Of a stretch of 10,762 nt of DNA, positions 5,388 through 10,762 are shown one piece after another. Each line of letters begins with the position of its first letter. The first letter of the stretch is position 1. The notes under the pieces were generated by a model. It had not been told where the DNA came from. It searched no databases and saw only the letters and a list, made by a program, of their open reading frames with translations. Origin of the DNA: a virus; UHGV virus genome UHGV-0242546; one strand, given 5' to 3'. The translations under genes were made by a program, and so were the position numbers.

Positions 5388-7241
5388 TTATGATGATGCC
5401 GGTGCATTTATCTCCAGCACCAGACTTTCTATCTCAACGCCATACGTTGCATTTTTGGTAATATCCGTCAGCGTCAGTGCATTTAGTCCCACTGTCAGAC
5501 TGTCTTTTATGACCTGGAATGCCGGGCCAGCCACTCCATTCAGTTTCGGAGTAACCGTGGCACTGCCGGCGGTGAACACCAGCTCCAGCGTCTGCCAGTC
5601 GTTACTGTAATTCCCGAACTCGCCCAACTTTGTGTTTCCGGCTTTCTTGTGATGCATCAGATTCAGTTTGCCGTCTGTGGTCTGGGTGAAGAACGACATC
5701 AGGAACGGGTTACCAGTCCCGGTCATCGCCACGACGTCAGGTAACGCTACATCGGTATACAGATAAATTCCCAGACCGAACTGGTTGTTGGTCAGTGCGC
5801 CTGACAGTCGAAACTTACAGCTCAGTCTGCCACCCCGTGTCAGCAGGGAGACTGCGTCATCCACCGGGCGCGTCAGGGACCAGGCTTTATTGCTCTGCTT
5901 GGTGATCTTAAATACACCATCTGACAACTGAATTCCGCCATTCTTAATGCTCCAGCCCTGCGCAGCAGCATCTCCGGCTGTCGGCAACAGGGAGATTGTG
6001 CGTACGGATGCATCTTCAGACGGCCCCGATGGCGTGTCGCCGCCGGGCGAGGGTTTGATTTCCGGTGCCTTACCACTAATGAAGGCTAAGGTGCGACCGG
6101 CTACGTTCAGAATAGCAGTTGCCATACGATCGGGAATAATGCCACGACGCGCCCATGAGCTGAAATGCGTCGGGCGATTTGATGATACCCAGTTTTTGTT
6201 CGTTCGGGATGCCGAACCGTAATAACCAGACCCGGCAATATCAGGATCTTCTGACGGGTTGTTTGTCGGTGTATTAACTCCGCTACCATCGGTCATAAAG
6301 GGAACAAAATAAATCTGCTGGGATTCTTTACCTTTATATGCACCATATACCACTTCATATTGCGTACCGTGTTCTTGTTTCCACGCGTATGTCGTGTCGC
6401 CACAAATCCAGGGGACTGATGCCGGACTTCCACCGTGACACTGCGCTGCCAGCCCGGCAAGGTCAGCACGGAACTGCTGTACCATTGCAAGAAATGCTGC
6501 TGGCTGCTGGGCGTAACTGGCATTCGTCATATCGAATTCCCCCTGCATCCAGCATATCGCCAGCAAAACGTTTTTCGGGTTTTTCTGCAATGCTGCCTTC
6601 GTGCGGAAAAGCAGATCCTGATATAACGGCTTACCCACTCCCCAGCGAGCCGAATCCTGACTGGCTCCCGTGGACTCGCTGAATGTCCCCTCCGTGCCCT
6701 GGGTGAATGCCGAACCACCACGACAGCATGGTACCAGCAGGATCCCCGCATTATTAGGGATATACGGAAGCAGTTTTTTGGCAATATGTAAGCCCTGTCC
6801 GACACAGCCGTACTGCCCTTTGCTCAGGTCAGCCCGGGGATGGTTAATCGTACTCATATCCTGAACATCATGCAGACAATGGTCAGCAGGAATGATGTCG
6901 TTAAATACGCATACTTCACCACCGGGAGTCACTGTGTTACGACGGGCCAGTTGCTTAATGCGCGGATGGGGCGCATCGTATGAATCCGGAAGCGGAAGCC
7001 CTTCACCGTAAGCCATGGCATTGGATTGCCCGGCCAGTACGATGACGTAGTACCACTCCGGCTCAGTTGCACCACTGACGACCACATCACCTTCTGCTGC
7101 AATCGCCTGCATCAGGGTATAAGGGGTTATGGCCACCGGACTACCAAACGGCTGCCAGCCCTCCTTCAGTTTTTGTGTCAGTCGTTTCGCAAGGTCTGAC
7201 GGCGATGCCGCCCTGACCACGTCATAGTGTTTAAATGCCAT
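5388..7241 (-). CDS. nanS-p: NanS-p-like prophage sialate 9-O-acetylesterase (N-terminal DUF1737, SGNH/DUF303 esterase domain, C-terminal extension), 617 aa
   Basis: N-terminus [38 protein letters not shown] (DUF1737-like), then [20 protein letters not shown] carrying the GQSN catalytic-serine block of SGNH/SASA esterases. It sits between the tRNA/stx locus and S, the position of the nanS-p (yjhS-like) gene in Stx prophages. Confidence 0.85.
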
Positions 7242-7434
7242 GAATCCTCCCGGGCGGGATAATGTTGTGAGTCAGATAAGGAGCAGGCTGAAGTCCGGAA
7301 GTTACAGGACAATGGCAGAAGGGAGACTACAGCCCGCAATTCGAAAAAGACCGCGCAGTTGCGCAGAGTGATTACTATGGGGTATTATTCGCCAGCTGAA
7401 ATATTACTTCACGTTTTATTGTTTATTCCTTGCC

Positions 7435-7463
7435 GCCCGCGTCTCCCAGCGCGGGCTTTTTTT
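7435..7463 (+). terminator. Intrinsic terminator on the plus strand (opposite to all neighbouring genes)
   Basis: GCCCGCG-(8-nt loop)-CGCGGGC followed by TTTTTTT. On the minus strand the same stem is followed by GGCAAGG, so it terminates only rightward transcription. Confidence 0.5.
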
Positions 7464-7469
7464 GTCCAT

Positions 7470-7705
7470 AAGAAAGCCCCTCCGGAGAGGGGCTAAAGCC
7501 GCGTATCTGTATCATCATGCACATGGTGCCGGGTGCCTCCCGGTGAGTTCAGCCCGGTGCCACTAAACCCGCGTCATTCTCGTTTTGATAATCAGAGATT
7601 ATACCGTCACCAGTCGCCCCTCCGCTCAGGGGGATTCACCATGCGAAATTTTTTTAACAAATGCCCAGTCTGACAGGCAACTGTCAACTTACTGAATTGT
7701 GAGCA
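7470..7705. repeat. Direct repeat copy A of a ~230-bp structured non-coding element
   Basis: Shares conserved blocks with copy B, in the same order with divergent spacers: AGAAAGCCCCTCCGGAGAGGGGCT, CATGGTGCCGGGTGCCTCCCGGTGA(G/A)TTCAG, GCCCCTCCGC(T/A)CAGGGGGATTCACCATGC, TTTTAACAAA, CTGAATTGTGAG. Confidence 0.7.
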
Positions 7706-7739
7706 ACATAGCATTTAACGGGGAACCTGTTTTCTGCAG

Positions 7740-7767
7740 TAAAAAGGCCCACCGGAGCGGATGGGCC
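7740..7767 (-). terminator. Terminator-like hairpin (minus strand) between the two repeat copies
   Basis: Minus-strand RNA GGCCCAUCCG-CUC-CGGUGGGCC followed by UUUUUACUG. Confidence 0.4.
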
Positions 7768-7956
7768 TGGAAGGATAGCGGTCATGTGATGCCGGTTTCC
7801 CGGTAACTCAGCACCGGTATCTGAGTCAACGTTTTCTCTACTGGGTCATTTCCGATACGCCCTGCCTGCTGACAGGCTTTCATCACATCTGAAAATATAG
7901 CACCCTGACTGATACTGTAGTACCTAAGGTTCCAGAAACTGTGATGTATCCGGCAC

Positions 7957-8175
7957 AGAAAAGCCCCTCCGGAGAGGGGCTGGAGAGTGGCGCTATGTGC
8001 CATTGCATGGTGCCGGGTGCCTCCCGGTGAATTCAGTACCAGCACCTGAATCCGCGATTATCCCATATACCTACTCGCTGATTGCCCCTCCGCACAGGGG
8101 GATTCACCATGCCAGTTTCTTTTAACAAACTCCCCGCAAACCAGACAACAGTCAACCGCCTGAATTGTGAGACAT
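7957..8175. repeat. Direct repeat copy B of the ~230-bp structured non-coding element
   Basis: See copy A. Same conserved blocks in the same order, immediately downstream (in transcription sense) of tRNA argO and its terminator. Confidence 0.7.
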
Positions 8176-8177
8176 TT

Positions 8178-8201
8178 AAAAAAAAGCCCGCAAAAGCGAG
8201 C
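8178..8201 (-). terminator. Rho-independent terminator following the tRNA cluster
   Basis: Minus-strand RNA GCUCGC-UUUU-GCGGGC followed by a U8 tract, starting ~15 nt after the 3' end of the argO-like tRNA. Confidence 0.55.
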
Positions 8202-8216
8202 CAGGGAAAATAAGTG

Positions 8217-8293
8217 TGGCGCGTTGTACTGGATTCGAACCAGTGACCGATTGCTTAGAAGGCAATTGCTCTGTCCGGCTGAGCTAACAACGC
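8217..8293 (-). tRNA. argO: tRNA-Arg (anticodon UCU, reads AGA), phage argO-like
   Basis: Minus strand GCGTTGTTAGCTCAGCCGGACAGAGCAATTGCCTTCTAAGCAATCGGTCACTGGTTCGAATCCAGTACAACGCGCCA folds as a canonical cloverleaf: 7-bp acceptor stem, GCTC/GAGC D-stem, anticodon loop CTTCTAA, T-loop TTCGAAT, encoded CCA. Confidence 0.9.
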
Positions 8294-8306
8294 AGGATAC
8301 AGATAA

Positions 8307-8383
8307 TGGACCGCCTTCGGGGACCCGAACTCCGCGCAACCAGCTTCGAAGGCTGGCGCTCTTTCCTGATGAGCTAATGGCGG
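8307..8383 (-). tRNA. argN: tRNA-Arg-like (anticodon UCG as read, would decode CGA), phage argN-like, with non-canonical features
   Basis: Minus strand CCGCCATTAGCTCATCAGGAAAGAGCGCCAGCCTTCGAAGCTGGTTGCGCGGAGTTCGGGTCCCCGAAGGCGGTCCA. Cloverleaf is recognisable (GCTC/GAGC D-stem, anticodon stem CCAGC/GCTGG, loop CTTCGAA, encoded CCA), but it has an A-A mismatch in the acceptor stem, one T-stem mismatch and G instead of the conserved A58. Confidence 0.7.
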
Positions 8384-8390
8384 TATGTGA

Positions 8391-8466
8391 TGGTGGCCCT
8401 TGCTGGATTTGAACCAGCGACCTGGCGATTATGAGTCGCTCGCTCTCACCACTGAGCTAAAGGGCC
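8391..8466 (-). tRNA. ileZ: tRNA-Ile2 (anticodon CAU, lysidine-type, reads AUA), phage ileZ-like
   Basis: Minus strand GGCCCTTTAGCTCAGTGGTGAGAGCGAGCGACTCATAATCGCCAGGTCGCTGGTTCAAATCCAGCAAGGGCCACCA is near-identical to E. coli tRNA-Ile2 (ileX) as I recall it; anticodon loop CTCATAA. Confidence 0.9.
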
Positions 8467-8515: not shown

Positions 8516-9565
8516 TCAAACGATTAAATCCTGAACTTCCCTGACTGTCTGCTCAAAACGTCCGGTCTCCAGTTCAACGCCAATCGCACGACGCCCGAGC
8601 GCCAGTGCCGCTTTTACCGTTGAACCTGAGCCCATAAAAAAATCTGCAACCAGGTCACCCGGACGACTGCTTGCGCTGATTATCTGCTGCAGCATTTCTG
8701 CCGGTTTTTCGCACGGATGTTTCCCGGGATAGAACTGCACCGGTTTATGTGTCCACACATCCGTGTACGGCACCTGCGCCGTCACACCAAAATACCGCCG
8801 CAGATGCTTATATTCACTCTGCAGCTCCACATACTGCCGGTTCAGTGACGTATACGTATCCACCAGCTGGTGGTGGGGCTTTTCCAGTTCACCGCGCTGA
8901 TGTTTCTCTTCTGCCACCCGGGCAAACAGCGACTGTAATTTCAGATAATCGCTTTCGTTCGGTAGCTGCCACTGACTGGCACTGAACCAGTGCGACACCA
9001 TGTTTTTCTTTCCTGTGGCATCTGCAATCTGTTTTGCCGTTATCCCCAGGGCCGCGCGCGCATCACGAAAGTAAGAAATCAGCGGGGCCATCACATGCTG
9101 TTTCAGTGCACTGCCCTTCGCCGCATACCTGGCATCTTTCGGACGATACGGCCCCTGATAATGTTCCGCGAACAGAATGCGCTCTGTGGCGGGGAAATAC
9201 GCCCGCAGGCTTTCCTTGTTGCATCCGTTCCAGCGTCCGGACGGCTTCGCCCAGATAATATGGTTCAGCACACTGAAGCGTTCACGCATCATGATTTCGA
9301 TATCAGATGCCAGGCGATGACCACAGAACAGGTAAAGACTTCCGGCAGGTTTCAGCACCCGCCAGAACTGCGCCAGACACTGGTCCAGCCACTTCAGGTA
9401 ATCATCGTCGCCCTTCCACTGGTTATCCCAGCCCTCAGGCTTCACTTTAAAGTACGGCGGGTCCGTGACTATCAGGTCAACAGAATTTTCGGGTAACGAC
9501 CGGATAAATTCCAGGCAGTCGGCGTTGATTAACTCACAACTGGATATTTTTACAGTATTAAGCAT
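8516..9565 (-). CDS. Orphan DNA amino-methyltransferase (N6-adenine or N4-cytosine), beta-class motif order, 349 aa
   Basis: Motif IV DPPY at residues 35-38 (LIVTDPPYF) near the N-terminus and AdoMet-binding motif I FxGxG (DFFMGSGST) near the C-terminus, i.e. IV-then-I order. No restriction endonuclease partner is visible in the window. Confidence 0.9.
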   Translation of the reverse strand: MLNTVKISSCELINADCLEFIRSLPENSVDLIVTDPPYFKVKPEGWDNQWKGDDDYLKWLDQCLAQFWRVLKPAGSLYLFCGHRLASDIEIMMRERFSVLNHIIWAKPSGRWNGCNKESLRAYFPATERILFAEHYQGPYRPKDARYAAKGSALKQHVMAPLISYFRDARAALGITAKQIADATGKKNMVSHWFSASQWQLPNESDYLKLQSLFARVAEEKHQRGELEKPHHQLVDTYTSLNRQYVELQSEYKHLRRYFGVTAQVPYTDVWTHKPVQFYPGKHPCEKPAEMLQQIISASSRPGDLVADFFMGSGSTVKAALALGRRAIGVELETGRFEQTVREVQDLIV

Positions 9566-10139: not shown

Positions 10140-10762
10140 CTATCGCGTTACCCTCTTTAACTGCCGCTCCGCCCATGCCTCTTCAATGTCAAACCGAACC
10201 ACCAACGTATCGTAAAAGCGTTTCACTGATTTTTTCCACGTATCAAGCGTGATAGCACTCGTCACTTTGCATATGGCATTAAATGCCTCCGTTGATGGTA
10301 GTCTTTCACAGCCACGACCACCACAACGCTGGCAGTCTCTGATAACAGGCATACCACGTTTTACCGACTCTTCACGATGAATGGCGACACCACGCCCACG
10401 GCAATCCTTACAGGCGGTGGAAACCTCACCCTTTCCGCCACACTCCGGACAGGCAACTTTTACCACCTCCCTGACTTTTTTCCATTCTTCCCAGTAAGAC
10501 GGATACACACCTTTCGTACACTTTGCCCATACCGGCGGCTTACCATCCGGATACCAGAACAGGTCGAAGTAATACCCGCACGTTACCTCCAGATGCGCTG
10601 CTGGAATGTGCGGGACGAGGCCGGATTCGACCTGAACGCCTTCCTCGACGAACTCGAACTGTCTGACCCGGTCGAAGCCATACACACCGTTTCCCGCGAC
10701 CTGACGCTGGGGGCAATCTTGCCGCTGGCCAACGGCGGCGAAACCAACGCATGGCTTATCCA
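10140..10762 (-). CDS. Q: Late-gene antiterminator Q (lambda-Q family, zinc-finger); reading frame open to the window edge, true start uncertain (GTG at 10685 or beyond the window)
   Basis: C-terminal half CKDCRGRGVAIH...CQRCGGRGCERLPSTEAFNAICKVTSAITLDTWKKSVKRFYDTLVVRFDIEEAWAERQLKRVTR parallels lambda Q as recalled (CRDCHGTGRAV...CGRCKGVGYSRMPASAAYRAV...TWSRTVKPLYDALVVQCHKEESIADNILNAVTR). A pR'-like promoter follows immediately downstream. The track ORF starts at GTG 10685, but the frame has no stop between there and 10762. Confidence 0.8.
   Translation of the reverse strand, partial: DKPCVGFAAVGQRQDCPQRQVAGNGVYGFDRVRQFEFVEEGVQVESGLVPHIPAAHLEVTCGYYFDLFWYPDGKPPVWAKCTKGVYPSYWEEWKKVREVVKVACPECGGKGEVSTACKDCRGRGVAIHREESVKRGMPVIRDCQRCGGRGCERLPSTEAFNAICKVTSAITLDTWKKSVKRFYDTLVVRFDIEEAWAERQLKRVTR

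What the first reader, a model, noticed from the sequence alone, without database searches (positions are those of the whole stretch)
7242..8216. stx-less toxin locus occupied by two diverged ~230-bp direct repeats with conserved hairpin blocks
In Stx phages the gene order is Q, methyltransferase, ileZ-argN-argO, stxAB, nanS-p. Here the segment between argO and nanS-p is about 1 kb with no convincing ORF. It carries two copies (7470-7705 and 7957-8175) of an element whose GC-rich, self-complementary blocks are conserved nearly base-for-base while the spacers between them have diverged. That pattern suggests selection on RNA structure or protein-binding sites rather than on coding. Each copy ends, in the minus-strand sense, with a terminator-like hairpin. 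Candidates are small structured RNAs made from the late transcript, regulatory or recombination sites at a cargo-exchange hotspot, or decayed remnants of a small gene (copy B has an intact 34-codon plus-strand ORF, MPVSFNKLPANQTTVNRLNCETFKKKPAKASQGK, that is frameshifted in copy A).
Basis: seen in the sequence. Interest (0 to 1): 0.6.

Follow-up and report, generated by a model that had tools for sequence, protein, structure and literature searches.

The report
Tandem STnc100-family prophage small RNA genes
The two repeats are copies of a known prophage small-RNA gene family (Rfam STnc100, related to EcOnc27 and PasD) that normally sits just downstream of the Shiga-toxin slot; here it is present three times in a row, so the finding is real but ordinary.

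Summary
On the minus strand, which is the late-gene strand, both repeats are full-length matches to Rfam RF02076 (STnc100): 7464-7673 at 165 bits and 7951-8141 at 136 bits, against a cut-off of 47. A third, diverged copy (M, about 7740-7887) lies between them. It scores below threshold (30 bits) but folds into the same five-helix architecture and is 93% conserved in two distant phages.

Each unit has a sigma-70-like promoter at a fixed distance from the first helix and its own intrinsic terminator. The fold shows strong covariation across 131 sequences from many Enterobacteriaceae.

The same element lies 75 nt downstream of stx2B in Stx2 phages (EcOnc27/sRNA103, Hfq-bound) and is structurally homologous to PasD1/PasD2 of EPEC. 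The repeats therefore do not replace stx. They are its usual neighbour, multiplied here.

A convergent plus-strand sRNA (7282-7463) is 96% identical to an EPEC RIL-seq sRNA candidate. It completes the 'convergent sRNA pair' layout published by Tree et al. 2014.

The pseudogene reading is rejected. Function is inferred from homologues: Hfq-assisted trans base-pairing through the variable pre-terminator segment. Novelty: already known. Interest: low.

The parts
7953..8170 (-). Unit B, an STnc100-family sRNA gene. It has an upstream conserved motif TCACAATTCAG (8170-8160), a promoter-like TTGTCT (8148-8143)-N17-TTAAAA (8125-8120) preceded by TG, and a predicted 5' end at G8112. The RNA runs from about 8112 to about 7955, with terminator stem 7981-7962 followed by UUUUCU.
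   Evidence: Rfam RF02076 match 7951-8141 at 136.3 bits, E 1e-30. The MFE fold equals the Rfam architecture. Terminator. The 5' end is placed by homology to PasD2 and by the family-wide promoter signal.
7740..7944 (-). Unit M, a diverged third paralogue. It has an upstream motif TCACAGTTTC (7944-7935) and an extended -10 TGcTATATT (7902-7894). The RNA runs from about 7887 to about 7740. Helices: P1 GUGAUG/CAUCAC, P2 GCCUG/CAGGC, P4 ACUCAG/CUGAGU, P5 CCGG-GAAA-CCGG. The linker is AUGACCGCUAUCCUUCC and the terminator is 7768-7745. The unit contains a 33-codon sense ORF (7883-7782).
   Evidence: Sub-threshold Rfam STnc100 match 7739-7912 at 30.1 bits, E 6e-4. The MFE fold reproduces the five-helix layout with z = -2.58. 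It is 93% identical to PhiR5_2 and vB_EcoS-813R8, and its P2 changes keep a hairpin. It is present in 673 of 5426 E. coli genomes.
7466..7702 (-). Unit A, an STnc100-family sRNA gene. It has the motif TCACAATTCAG (7702-7692), a promoter-like TTGCCT (7680-7675)-N17-TTAAAA (7657-7652) preceded by TG, and a predicted 5' end at G7644. The RNA runs from about 7644 to about 7466, with terminator stem 7494-7475 followed by UUUCUU.
   Evidence: Rfam RF02076 match 7464-7673 at 165.4 bits, E 4e-38. Terminator. Alignment to phage homologues.
7282..7463 (+). Convergent plus-strand sRNA candidate, antisense to the leader of the esterase gene. Its seed-like CCUUGCC lies just before the terminator GCCCGCGUCUCCCAGCGCGGGC-U7 (7435-7463). 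A promoter-like ATGCCA-N17-GATAAT lies at 7235-7263.
   Evidence: 96% identical over 234 nt to the region of EPEC E2348/69 holding the RIL-seq sRNA candidate E2348C_1409.E2348C_1408.IGR (NC_011601 1444797-1444978, minus strand). That candidate has homologues EcOnc08/21/42, partners cfa and dppA 5'UTRs, and target motif GGCAAGG. Terminator and promoter. It is not AsxR or AgvB by Rfam.
8185..8202 (-). Intrinsic terminator-like hairpin (GGCUCGCUUUUGCGGGCU + U8) directly after the last tRNA (argO-like). It separates the tRNA cluster from unit B.
   Evidence: tRNAs.
8217..8466 (-). tRNA cluster upstream of the array: CAT (ileZ-type, annotated tRNA-Ile by PGAP in an E. coli genome whose copy of this 975-nt stretch is identical), Arg-TCG and Arg-TCT.
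5388..7241 (-). Downstream late gene: a 617-aa DUF1737-SASA-DUF6645 carbohydrate esterase (nanS-p type). This is the 'conserved phage ORF' that bounds the sRNA site.

Best explanation
The 1-kb tRNA-to-esterase interval is a small-RNA gene cluster of a stx-less lambdoid prophage. It holds three head-to-tail paralogues of the STnc100 / EcOnc27 (sRNA103) / PasD family (B, M, A) on the late-gene strand, plus one convergent sRNA on the opposite strand.

Shown here: each unit has a sigma-70-type promoter-like element, a roughly 110-nt five-helix domain (P1 closing a junction with P2-P5), a 17-27-nt variable linker, and an intrinsic terminator. The helices are maintained by compensatory substitutions across Enterobacteriaceae. 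The promoter, the P3 region (V1) and the pre-terminator linker (V2) reassort between phages.

Inferred from homologues: in lysogens each unit is transcribed on its own into a 150-180-nt RNA that ends at its terminator. That RNA associates with Hfq and base-pairs with host and prophage mRNAs through the V2 linker, where the PasD seed lies. A, B and M carry different V2 segments and so would have different target sets.

Inferred from lambdoid biology: after induction, Q-modified RNA polymerase from PR' reads through all these terminators into the esterase and lysis genes. Without Q, the stack of terminators would also block read-through from the tRNA and sRNA promoters into those genes.
For: Family identity: two full-length matches to RF02076 far above the cut-off, and a third weak match.

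Structure: the MFE folds of B and M give the Rfam layout. RNAalifold on 13 phage copies recovers P1, P2, P4, P5 and the terminator. On a sequence-only MAFFT alignment of 131 distinct copies from many genera, 95.2% of cells pair, against 41-45% with slid partners. Sixteen of 25 pairs show double-sided changes, with 295 compensatory cells against 46-69 in the slid controls, and 0 of 500 shuffles reach the observed values.

Autonomous units: terminators follow each unit. A TTGac-N17-TAAAAT signal sits at a fixed distance from P1 in 106 distinct copies. The RNA-seq/Northern-based 5' end of PasD2 is the G of GCAUGGUG.

Homologues are real, Hfq-associated sRNAs. PasD1/2 were validated by Northern blot and have RIL-seq partners, with chimeras mapping to the 3' seed and terminator part. 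EcOnc27/sRNA103 is Hfq-bound and lies downstream of stx2B. EDL933 carries 11 STnc100 copies, all with RNA-seq reads and one confirmed by Northern blot. PasD-STnc100 structural homology is published and was reproduced here.

Position: the element is at the same site in Stx1, Stx2 and stx-less phages. The convergent-pair layout was described by Tree et al. 2014. Module reassortment is shown.
Against: No expression data exist for this exact sequence, and PGAP annotates no ncRNA here. Hfq binding, seeds and targets of A, B and M are untested. Their 3' U-tracts are interrupted (UUUCUU, UUUUCU, UUUUUA), which is poorer than PasD's U8. The simple consensus promoter scan did not call the unit promoters, so they rest on alignment and homology. 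Single-sequence folding z-scores are modest for A and B (-1.8 and -1.95). A highly conserved 110-nt structured 5' domain is atypical for a plain Hfq sRNA and may have a function of its own. P5 and the 3' arm of P1 look invariant partly because the cross-genus loci were retrieved with that very sequence. Duplex predictions against neighbouring translation-initiation regions gave nothing significant.
Confidence: 0.8

Rival explanations
1. The units act mainly in cis on the late operon. They form a stack of intrinsic terminators and stable structures that insulates the esterase and lysis genes from tRNA or sRNA read-through in lysogens, is overridden by Q, and perhaps stabilises or processes the late transcript. 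They would have no trans-acting role.
For: There are five minus-strand terminator-like hairpins in 1 kb, and 10 sites in all against 1.1 expected. The array lies between PR'/tRNAs and the lysis region here, and directly upstream of lysozyme/Rz genes in Leclercia and Superficieibacter.
Against: A terminator needs no 110-nt covarying five-helix domain or a promoter of its own. Homologues accumulate as discrete Hfq-bound sRNAs with trans partners. This role is compatible with the main explanation rather than a replacement for it.
Confidence: 0.12
2. The conserved blocks are DNA-level sites. They could be recombination anchors for exchange of cargo (stx and other morons) between lambdoid phages, or protein-binding sites. 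In that case the RNA is incidental.
For: Promoter, V1 and V2 segments reassort between phages, with breakpoints in the conserved blocks. For example, PPwrbA has the V1 of unit A (98%) and the V2 of unit B (100%). The site flanks the moron slot.
Against: Compensatory base changes that keep pairing (16 of 25 pairs) are a signature of selection on RNA, not on duplex DNA. Strand-specific promoter and terminator features point the same way. Any conserved sequence will serve homologous recombination without being selected for it.
Confidence: 0.05
3. The repeats are decayed fragments of a small protein-coding gene: the plus-strand 34-codon ORF in copy B, or sense ORFs such as the 33-codon ORF in M.
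For: An intact 34-codon ORF lies at 8109-8213 (+). The 33-codon sense ORF in M is retained without indels in PhiR5_2. PGAP places 'hypothetical protein' pseudogene calls here and in EPEC.
Against: The 34-codon ORF is absent, truncated or in another frame in 10 of 12 homologous units examined. Neither ORF has a Pfam match. Indels between copies are not multiples of three. In M, 5 of the 7 changed codons are non-synonymous, and several of them fall in the P2 region, where each allele still forms a hairpin. No Shine-Dalgarno sequence precedes the M ORF.
Confidence: 0.03

Closest known systems
Rfam RF02076 STnc100 (Gammaproteobacterial sRNA, first listed in Salmonella; multi-copy in prophages)
   Same: Units A and B match the whole model at 165 and 136 bits. 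They share its helices, terminator and prophage late-region location.
   Different: Three copies lie head to tail here. Unit M is below the family threshold (30 bits against 47). The first ~29 model positions correspond to the -10 region and spacer of the predicted promoter, so the true RNA probably starts at model position ~30 (inference).
EcOnc27 (Sakai) / sRNA103 (EDL933, 86-24): Hfq-bound sRNA immediately 3' of stx2B
   Same: It lies at the same site, between the moron slot and the nanS-p-type ORF, on the same strand, and is paired with a convergent sRNA. The Stx2-phage copy is an STnc100 match of 208 bits located 75 nt after stx2B.
   Different: The window has no stx. The V1 and V2 segments of A and B differ from the Stx2-phage copy (26-32% identity in those segments), so the reported effects on espA and fimZ cannot be transferred.
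PasD1/PasD2 of EPEC E2348/69 (homologues of EcOnc13): RIL-seq and Northern-validated sRNAs
   Same: They share the P1, P2, P4 and P5 scaffold, a sub-threshold STnc100 match (41 and 38 bits), the position upstream of the SASA esterase (PasD2), and a promoter with the same spacing.
   Different: They have a different 3' linker (seed UGUGAG), a different terminator and a shortened P5. The published work describes PasD copies as distal, not tandem.
AsxR / AgvB anti-sRNAs (RF02703 / RF02702): convergent partners of the STnc100-type sRNA
   Same: The window's plus-strand sRNA occupies the same convergent position, with its terminator back to back with that of unit A.
   Different: There is no Rfam match to either family at E <= 10. 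The RNA is about 180 nt by homology rather than 51-60 nt. Its closest relative is the EPEC candidate homologous to EcOnc08/21/42.
Tandem paralogous sRNAs such as OmrA/OmrB or PrrF1/PrrF2
   Same: These are adjacent duplicated sRNA genes with a shared scaffold and diverged segments.
   Different: They are unrelated in sequence and are chromosomal core genes, not prophage cargo. This comparison rests on general knowledge and on the mention.

Membership tests
Rfam RF02076 STnc100 | Covariance-model score at or above the curated gathering score (47 bits) | tested here: met
   Unit A scores 165.4 bits and unit B 136.3 bits, both covering model positions 1-206. Unit M scores 30.1 bits, so it is NOT a member by this criterion.
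Rfam RF02076 STnc100 | Consensus fold: P1 closing a multi-helix junction (P2-P5), followed by a linker and a terminator hairpin | tested here: met
   MFE folds of B and M. RNAalifold on 13 copies. 95.2% of cells paired, with 16 of 25 pairs covarying across 131 sequences. The single-sequence MFE of unit A differs, because the terminator competes with P2.
Rfam RF02076 STnc100 | Location in the late region of lambdoid prophages, between Q or the moron slot and the lysis genes | tested here: met
   Window context. An E. coli genome that carries the identical 975-nt stretch shows the same gene layout. Stx and other phages. Other genera.
Hfq-dependent trans-acting sRNA (as for PasD and EcOnc27) | Own promoter giving a discrete primary transcript | tested here: inconclusive
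   A promoter-like TTGnCT-N17-TTAAAA with an upstream TG is conserved at a fixed distance family-wide and agrees with the PasD2 5' end. It was not called by the consensus scan, and there are no transcript data for this sequence.
Hfq-dependent trans-acting sRNA (as for PasD and EcOnc27) | Rho-independent terminator with a 3' U-tract | tested here: met
   Stems at 7981-7962, 7768-7745 and 7494-7475, each with a T-rich tail. The tails are interrupted by C or A.
Hfq-dependent trans-acting sRNA (as for PasD and EcOnc27) | Hfq binding and base-pairing with target mRNAs through a seed | not testable with these tools
   Known only for homologues. In-silico duplexes with neighbouring genes were not significant.
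Convergent sRNA pair at the PR' moron site (Tree et al. 2014) | A forward sRNA and a convergent sRNA between the moron or tRNA region and the conserved downstream ORF | tested here: met
   Unit A ends at about 7466. The plus-strand element 7282-7463 has its own terminator and is 96% identical to an EPEC RIL-seq sRNA candidate at the same position.
AsxR/AgvB anti-sRNA family (RF02703 / RF02702) | Match of the convergent partner to the family model (conserved ~42-nt 3' region) | tested here: not met
   No match at E <= 10 in the window, whereas Stx2 phage I and Shigella phage 75/02 do match. The alignment shows only terminator-level similarity.
Protein-coding gene remnant | An ORF conserved in frame among homologues, or similarity to a protein family | tested here: not met

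The most novel reading that the evidence does not exclude
The nearly invariant ~110-nt five-helix 5' domain (P1-P5, with fixed junction and loop sequences from Escherichia to Kosakonia, Klebsiella and Pantoea) may be a functional module in its own right, for example a binding platform for a host or phage protein. The tandem arrays upstream of phage lysis genes would then be cassettes in which recombination swaps promoters and seed segments onto that module. Unit M would be an unannotated, deeply diverged member of this superfamily, present in 673 of 5426 complete E. coli genomes, and possibly dual-function through its retained 33-codon ORF.
Probability: 0.2. Interest if true: 0.5.

Novelty: already known. 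Interest (0 to 1): 0.2.

Why it matters
The result mainly affects annotation and interpretation. The interval that looks like an empty toxin slot is a densely packed sRNA locus with four predicted sRNA genes in 1 kb, and PGAP leaves it blank or labels it 'hypothetical protein'. The family is linked in the literature to EHEC and EPEC virulence regulation, and sequence features predictive of HUS have been mapped to it. Knowing that commensal and ExPEC-type prophages carry up to three differently 'seeded' copies, one invisible to Rfam thresholds, helps anyone mapping prophage sRNA regulons. It does not open a new kind of biology.

Tried and rejected
1. Pseudogene or small-ORF reading. The antisense 34-codon ORF is not conserved among homologous units, and neither small ORF has a Pfam hit.
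2. AsxR/AgvB identity for the convergent RNA. There is no Rfam match and only terminator-level similarity.
3. Cis-target idea. I ran RNAduplex on the three V2 linkers against the translation-initiation regions of seven minus-strand ORFs in the window and against the convergent sRNA. The best z-scores were about -2.4 to -2.5 among 24 tests, which is not significant. The 8-bp match between the M linker and the esterase Shine-Dalgarno sequence gave z = -1.7.
4. Single-sequence thermodynamic stability as evidence. The z-scores of -1.8 and -1.95 for A and B are weak, so I relied on covariation instead.
5. The consensus promoter scan did not find the unit promoters. I replaced it with a position-specific count over 106 homologues.
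6. I tried to fetch EDL933 (NC_002655.2) to compare the Northern-verified STnc100_4 copy, but the record is not in the collection.
7. A literature search for 'EcOnc13' returned nothing in main texts.
Full report
**Orientation and context.**
The prophage late genes run on the minus strand of the window. Reading in that direction, the order is as follows:
- an antiterminator Q homologue (10140-10685, PF03589);
- an N6/N4 DNA methylase (8516-9565);
- three tRNAs (8391-8466 CAT, 8307-8383 Arg-TCG, 8217-8293 Arg-TCT);
- the 975-nt interval in question;
- a 617-aa DUF1737-SASA-DUF6645 esterase of the nanS-p type (5388-7241).

The interval is 100% identical in many complete E. coli genomes, for example ML35 and VR50. 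There PGAP annotates only a 'hypothetical protein' pseudogene and no RNA. In all, 353 of 5426 genomes carry at least 80% of the interval, and 2870 carry some part of it.

Three conserved blocks (88 nt at 80%, 31 nt at 97%, 22 nt at 100%) are separated by diverged spacers. Both copies are end-to-end matches, on the minus strand, to Rfam RF02076 STnc100: 7464-7673 (165.4 bits, E 4e-38) and 7951-8141 (136.3 bits, E 1e-30), against a gathering score of 47. Each copy ends in an intrinsic-terminator hairpin, AGCCCCUC-UCCG-GAGGGGCU followed by a U-rich tail (7494-7475 and 7981-7962). The region holds 10 terminator-like sites where shuffles give 1.1.

**A third unit.**
With permissive thresholds the same model also matches 7739-7912 (30.1 bits, E 6e-4), between the two strong copies. 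Folded alone from 7886 to 7738, this unit M reproduces the family layout (MFE -52.7 kcal/mol, z = -2.58):
- P1 is GUGAUG/CAUCAC and encloses the other hairpins;
- P2 is GCCUG-UCAG-CAGGC;
- a short P3 follows;
- P4 is ACUCAG/CUGAGU;
- P5 is CCGG-GAAA-CCGG;
- a single-stranded linker and a terminator (7768-7745) complete the unit.

The same strong-weak-strong triplet occurs in phages PhiR5_2 and vB_EcoS-813R8. Over the whole interval PhiR5_2 is only 78% identical to the window. Yet unit M is 93% conserved in both phages, and its P2 differences keep a hairpin. M-type sequence is found in 673 of 5426 E. coli genomes, in two alleles, and in only five phage records, none of them a Stx phage.

**The structure is under selection.**
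RNAalifold on 13 E. coli-phage copies recovers P1, P2, P4, P5 and the terminator, with five compensatory pairs. I scanned one genome per species for the P5/P1 block. A handful of hits carry titles from unrelated taxa, some on very short contigs. nhmmer then located 139 copies.

On a MAFFT alignment made without any structural information (131 distinct cores), 95.2% of cells form standard pairs, against 41-45% when the partners are slid. Sixteen of 25 pairs show changes on both sides. There are 295 compensatory cells, against 46-69 in the slid controls, and none of 500 shuffles reaches the observed values.

One caveat applies. P5 and the 3' arm of P1 appear invariant partly because they were the search pattern. 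The informative helices are the P1 5' part, P2, the P3 base and P4.

**Each unit looks like an autonomous gene.**
PasD2 of EPEC E2348/69 is a Northern-validated sRNA identified by Hfq RIL-seq. It spans NC_011601 741157-741328, with ends set from RNA-seq coverage and Northern size. It lies between a DUF3927 gene and the SASA esterase, matches STnc100 below threshold (41 bits), and starts at the G of GCAUGGUGAAUCC.

The homologous G is 8112 in unit B and 7644 in unit A. Upstream lie TTGTCT (8148-8143)-N17-TTAAAA (8125-8120) and TTGCCT (7680-7675)-N17-TTAAAA (7657-7652), each with a TG one base before a TAAAA-type hexamer. PasD2 has TTGACT-N17-TTAAAA in the same register (read). Unit M has TGcTATATT (7902-7894), seven bases before P1.

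Over 106 distinct copies from many genera, a TAAAAT-like element sits at -15 to -10 and a weak TTGac at -38 to -34 relative to the GGUGAAU anchor. The generic consensus scan did not call these promoters, so they remain predictions. If they are right, the first ~29 positions of the Rfam model are promoter DNA rather than RNA.

**Comparison with Stx phages.**
- In Stx2 converting phage I (933W type), stx2B ends at locus position 2442. An STnc100 match (207.7 bits) spans 2517-2722. AsxR lies convergently at 2776-2724, and the nanS-p-type ORF starts at 2929.
- The Stx1 phage and Shigella phage 75/02 have the same layout, the latter with AgvB as the convergent partner.
- Phage PPwrbA_EH2201 leaves only 107 nt between the last tRNA and a single STnc100 copy, which is too short to hold stx.
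- One GenBank record (phage F039) already labels the element 'Gammaproteobacterial sRNA STnc100'.

So the repeats are not something that moved into an empty toxin slot. They are the constant neighbour of that slot, here in three copies. Tree et al. [quoted passage not shown] Their examples were EcOnc27 with AsxR after stx2B in Sp5, and similar arrangements in Sp3, 4, 9, 10, 11, 15 and 17.

**The convergent partner in the window.**
Plus-strand 7242-7475 is 96% identical to the region of EPEC prophage PP6 holding the RIL-seq sRNA candidate E2348C_1409.E2348C_1408.IGR, which maps onto window 7282-7463. The authors list it as homologous to EcOnc08/21/42. Its partners include the cfa and dppA 5'UTRs, and its target motif GGCAAGG is complementary to the CCUUGCC just before its terminator. 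The terminator (7435-7456 plus U7) stands back to back with that of unit A. It is not AsxR or AgvB: there is no Rfam match, and the alignment shows only terminator-level similarity.

**What is known about function.**
All of this comes from homologues.
- EDL933 has 11 STnc100 copies, all with RNA-seq reads and one confirmed by Northern blot (PMC5331693).
- EcOnc27/sRNA103 binds Hfq. Its overexpression raises espA and fimZ transcripts, apparently indirectly (PMC12711010 and PMC5030294).
- STnc100 RNA was detected in outer-membrane vesicles of two STEC strains (PMC12370729).
- PasD1/2 have many RIL-seq partners, with a seed UGUGAG in the linker just before the terminator.
- Zhu, Shabalina and Storz (bioRxiv 2026) conclude that PasD and STnc100 share an ancestor.

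**Mosaicism and the likely seed.**
Segment-wise identities show that the promoter, V1 (the P3 region) and V2 (the pre-terminator linker) reassort independently. PPwrbA combines the V1 of unit A (98%) with the V2 of unit B (100%). Shigella 75/02 has the V1 and P4-P5 of unit B (100%) but a different V2. The Stx2 phage I copy has the promoter of unit A (97%) but different V1 and V2.

The three window units carry three different V2 linkers:
- A: UGCAUGAUGAUACAGAUACGCGGCUUU
- B: CAAUGGCACAUAGCGCCACUCUCC
- M: AUGACCGCUAUCCUUCC

By analogy with PasD, I infer that these are the seeds and that the three copies address different targets. This is an inference, not a result. Duplex predictions against neighbouring genes were uninformative.

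**Tandem arrays are a family habit.**
In other genera the element occurs in runs of two to four copies spaced 200-290 nt apart, for example four in a Leclercia MAG and three in Superficieibacter electus. In the two arrays I checked, the array lies directly upstream of phage lysozyme and Rz genes. The window's triplet is therefore not exceptional for the family, although published work on PasD reports distal rather than tandem copies.

**Rivals.**
- Coding remnants are excluded to the extent sequence can show.
- A DNA-level recombination role is at best secondary, because covariation is an RNA signature.
- A cis role as a terminator stack that Q overrides is plausible and compatible with the main explanation. 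It does not explain the conserved five-helix domain or the promoters.

**Verdict.**
It belongs to a curated, experimentally supported family at its canonical location, so it is already known. The modest additions from this analysis are:
- the sub-threshold third paralogue M;
- the convergent fourth sRNA;
- the likely over-extension of the Rfam model into the promoter;
- the modular reassortment of promoter, V1 and V2.

Noticed in passing
window 7740-7944 (-): A third, diverged STnc100-like unit (M) lies between the two reported repeats. It is below Rfam's threshold (30 bits) but has the same five-helix fold, its own extended -10 element and its own terminator. It is more conserved between distant phages (93%) than the flanking units, and it occurs in 673 of 5426 E. 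coli genomes with no annotation. It retains a 33-codon sense ORF (7883-7782) whose substitutions look non-coding.
   Followed up: yes
window 7282-7463 (+): A convergent plus-strand sRNA candidate is 96% identical to the EPEC RIL-seq candidate E2348C_1409.E2348C_1408.IGR (homologous to EcOnc08/21/42, with cfa and dppA 5'UTRs as partners). It is antisense to the esterase leader, and its terminator stands back to back with that of unit A.
   Followed up: yes
window 8170-8160, 7944-7935, 7702-7692 (-): Each of the three units is preceded, about 12-20 nt upstream of its -35 position, by a conserved TCACA(A/G)TT motif. CUCACA is also the published target motif of the PasD seed (UGUGAG). The meaning is unknown: it could be a duplication boundary, a regulator site or coincidence.
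   Followed up: no
window 7271-7263 (-), 22 nt upstream of the esterase start codon: The esterase leader contains CUCACAACA. This includes CACAACA, the consensus target of the GcvB R1 seed, and CUCACA, the PasD target motif. It hints that the nanS-p-type gene could itself be an sRNA target. This was not tested.
   Followed up: no
window 7351-7366 (-) and 8185-8202 (-): Two further minus-strand terminator-like hairpins are present. One lies directly after the last tRNA. The other lies inside the region antisense to the convergent sRNA, about 110 nt before the esterase start. With the three unit terminators, that makes five minus-strand terminators in 1 kb.
   Followed up: partly
Rfam RF02076 model positions 1-29, equivalent to window 7673-7645 and 8141-8113: The 5' end of the Rfam model covers what appears to be the promoter spacer and -10 element. 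The mapped PasD2 5' end and the family-wide promoter signal put the RNA start at about model position 30. By my count on Stx2 phage I (L008), the published HUS-associated SNP (+90) and T deletion (+103) downstream of stx2B would then fall in or next to the -10 element and the discriminator of this promoter, not in the RNA. This is an inference and was not verified.
   Followed up: partly
L004 2121-2297 (EPEC E2348/69 prophage PP6): The STnc100 copy in PP6 is truncated at its 5' end, where the homology is replaced by unrelated sequence; an ISEc13 transposase gene lies just upstream. The copy has lost its promoter and the P1 5' arm, while the convergent sRNA next to it is intact and was detected by RIL-seq.
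   Followed up: partly
L113 5465-6549, L042 6365-7004, L059, L041/L116 (Leclercia, Superficieibacter): Arrays of three to four or more STnc100-type units, spaced 200-290 nt apart, occur in other genera. In the two arrays checked (L113 and L042) they sit directly upstream of phage lysozyme and Rz genes. One copy lies on a Klebsiella plasmid (L074).
   Followed up: partly
L010 2303-2419 (phage vB_EcoS-813R8): In this relative, a gene annotated TciB lies between the tRNA and the first STnc100 unit, and an IraM anti-adapter gene lies after the array. This shows different cargo around the same sRNA triplet.
   Followed up: no
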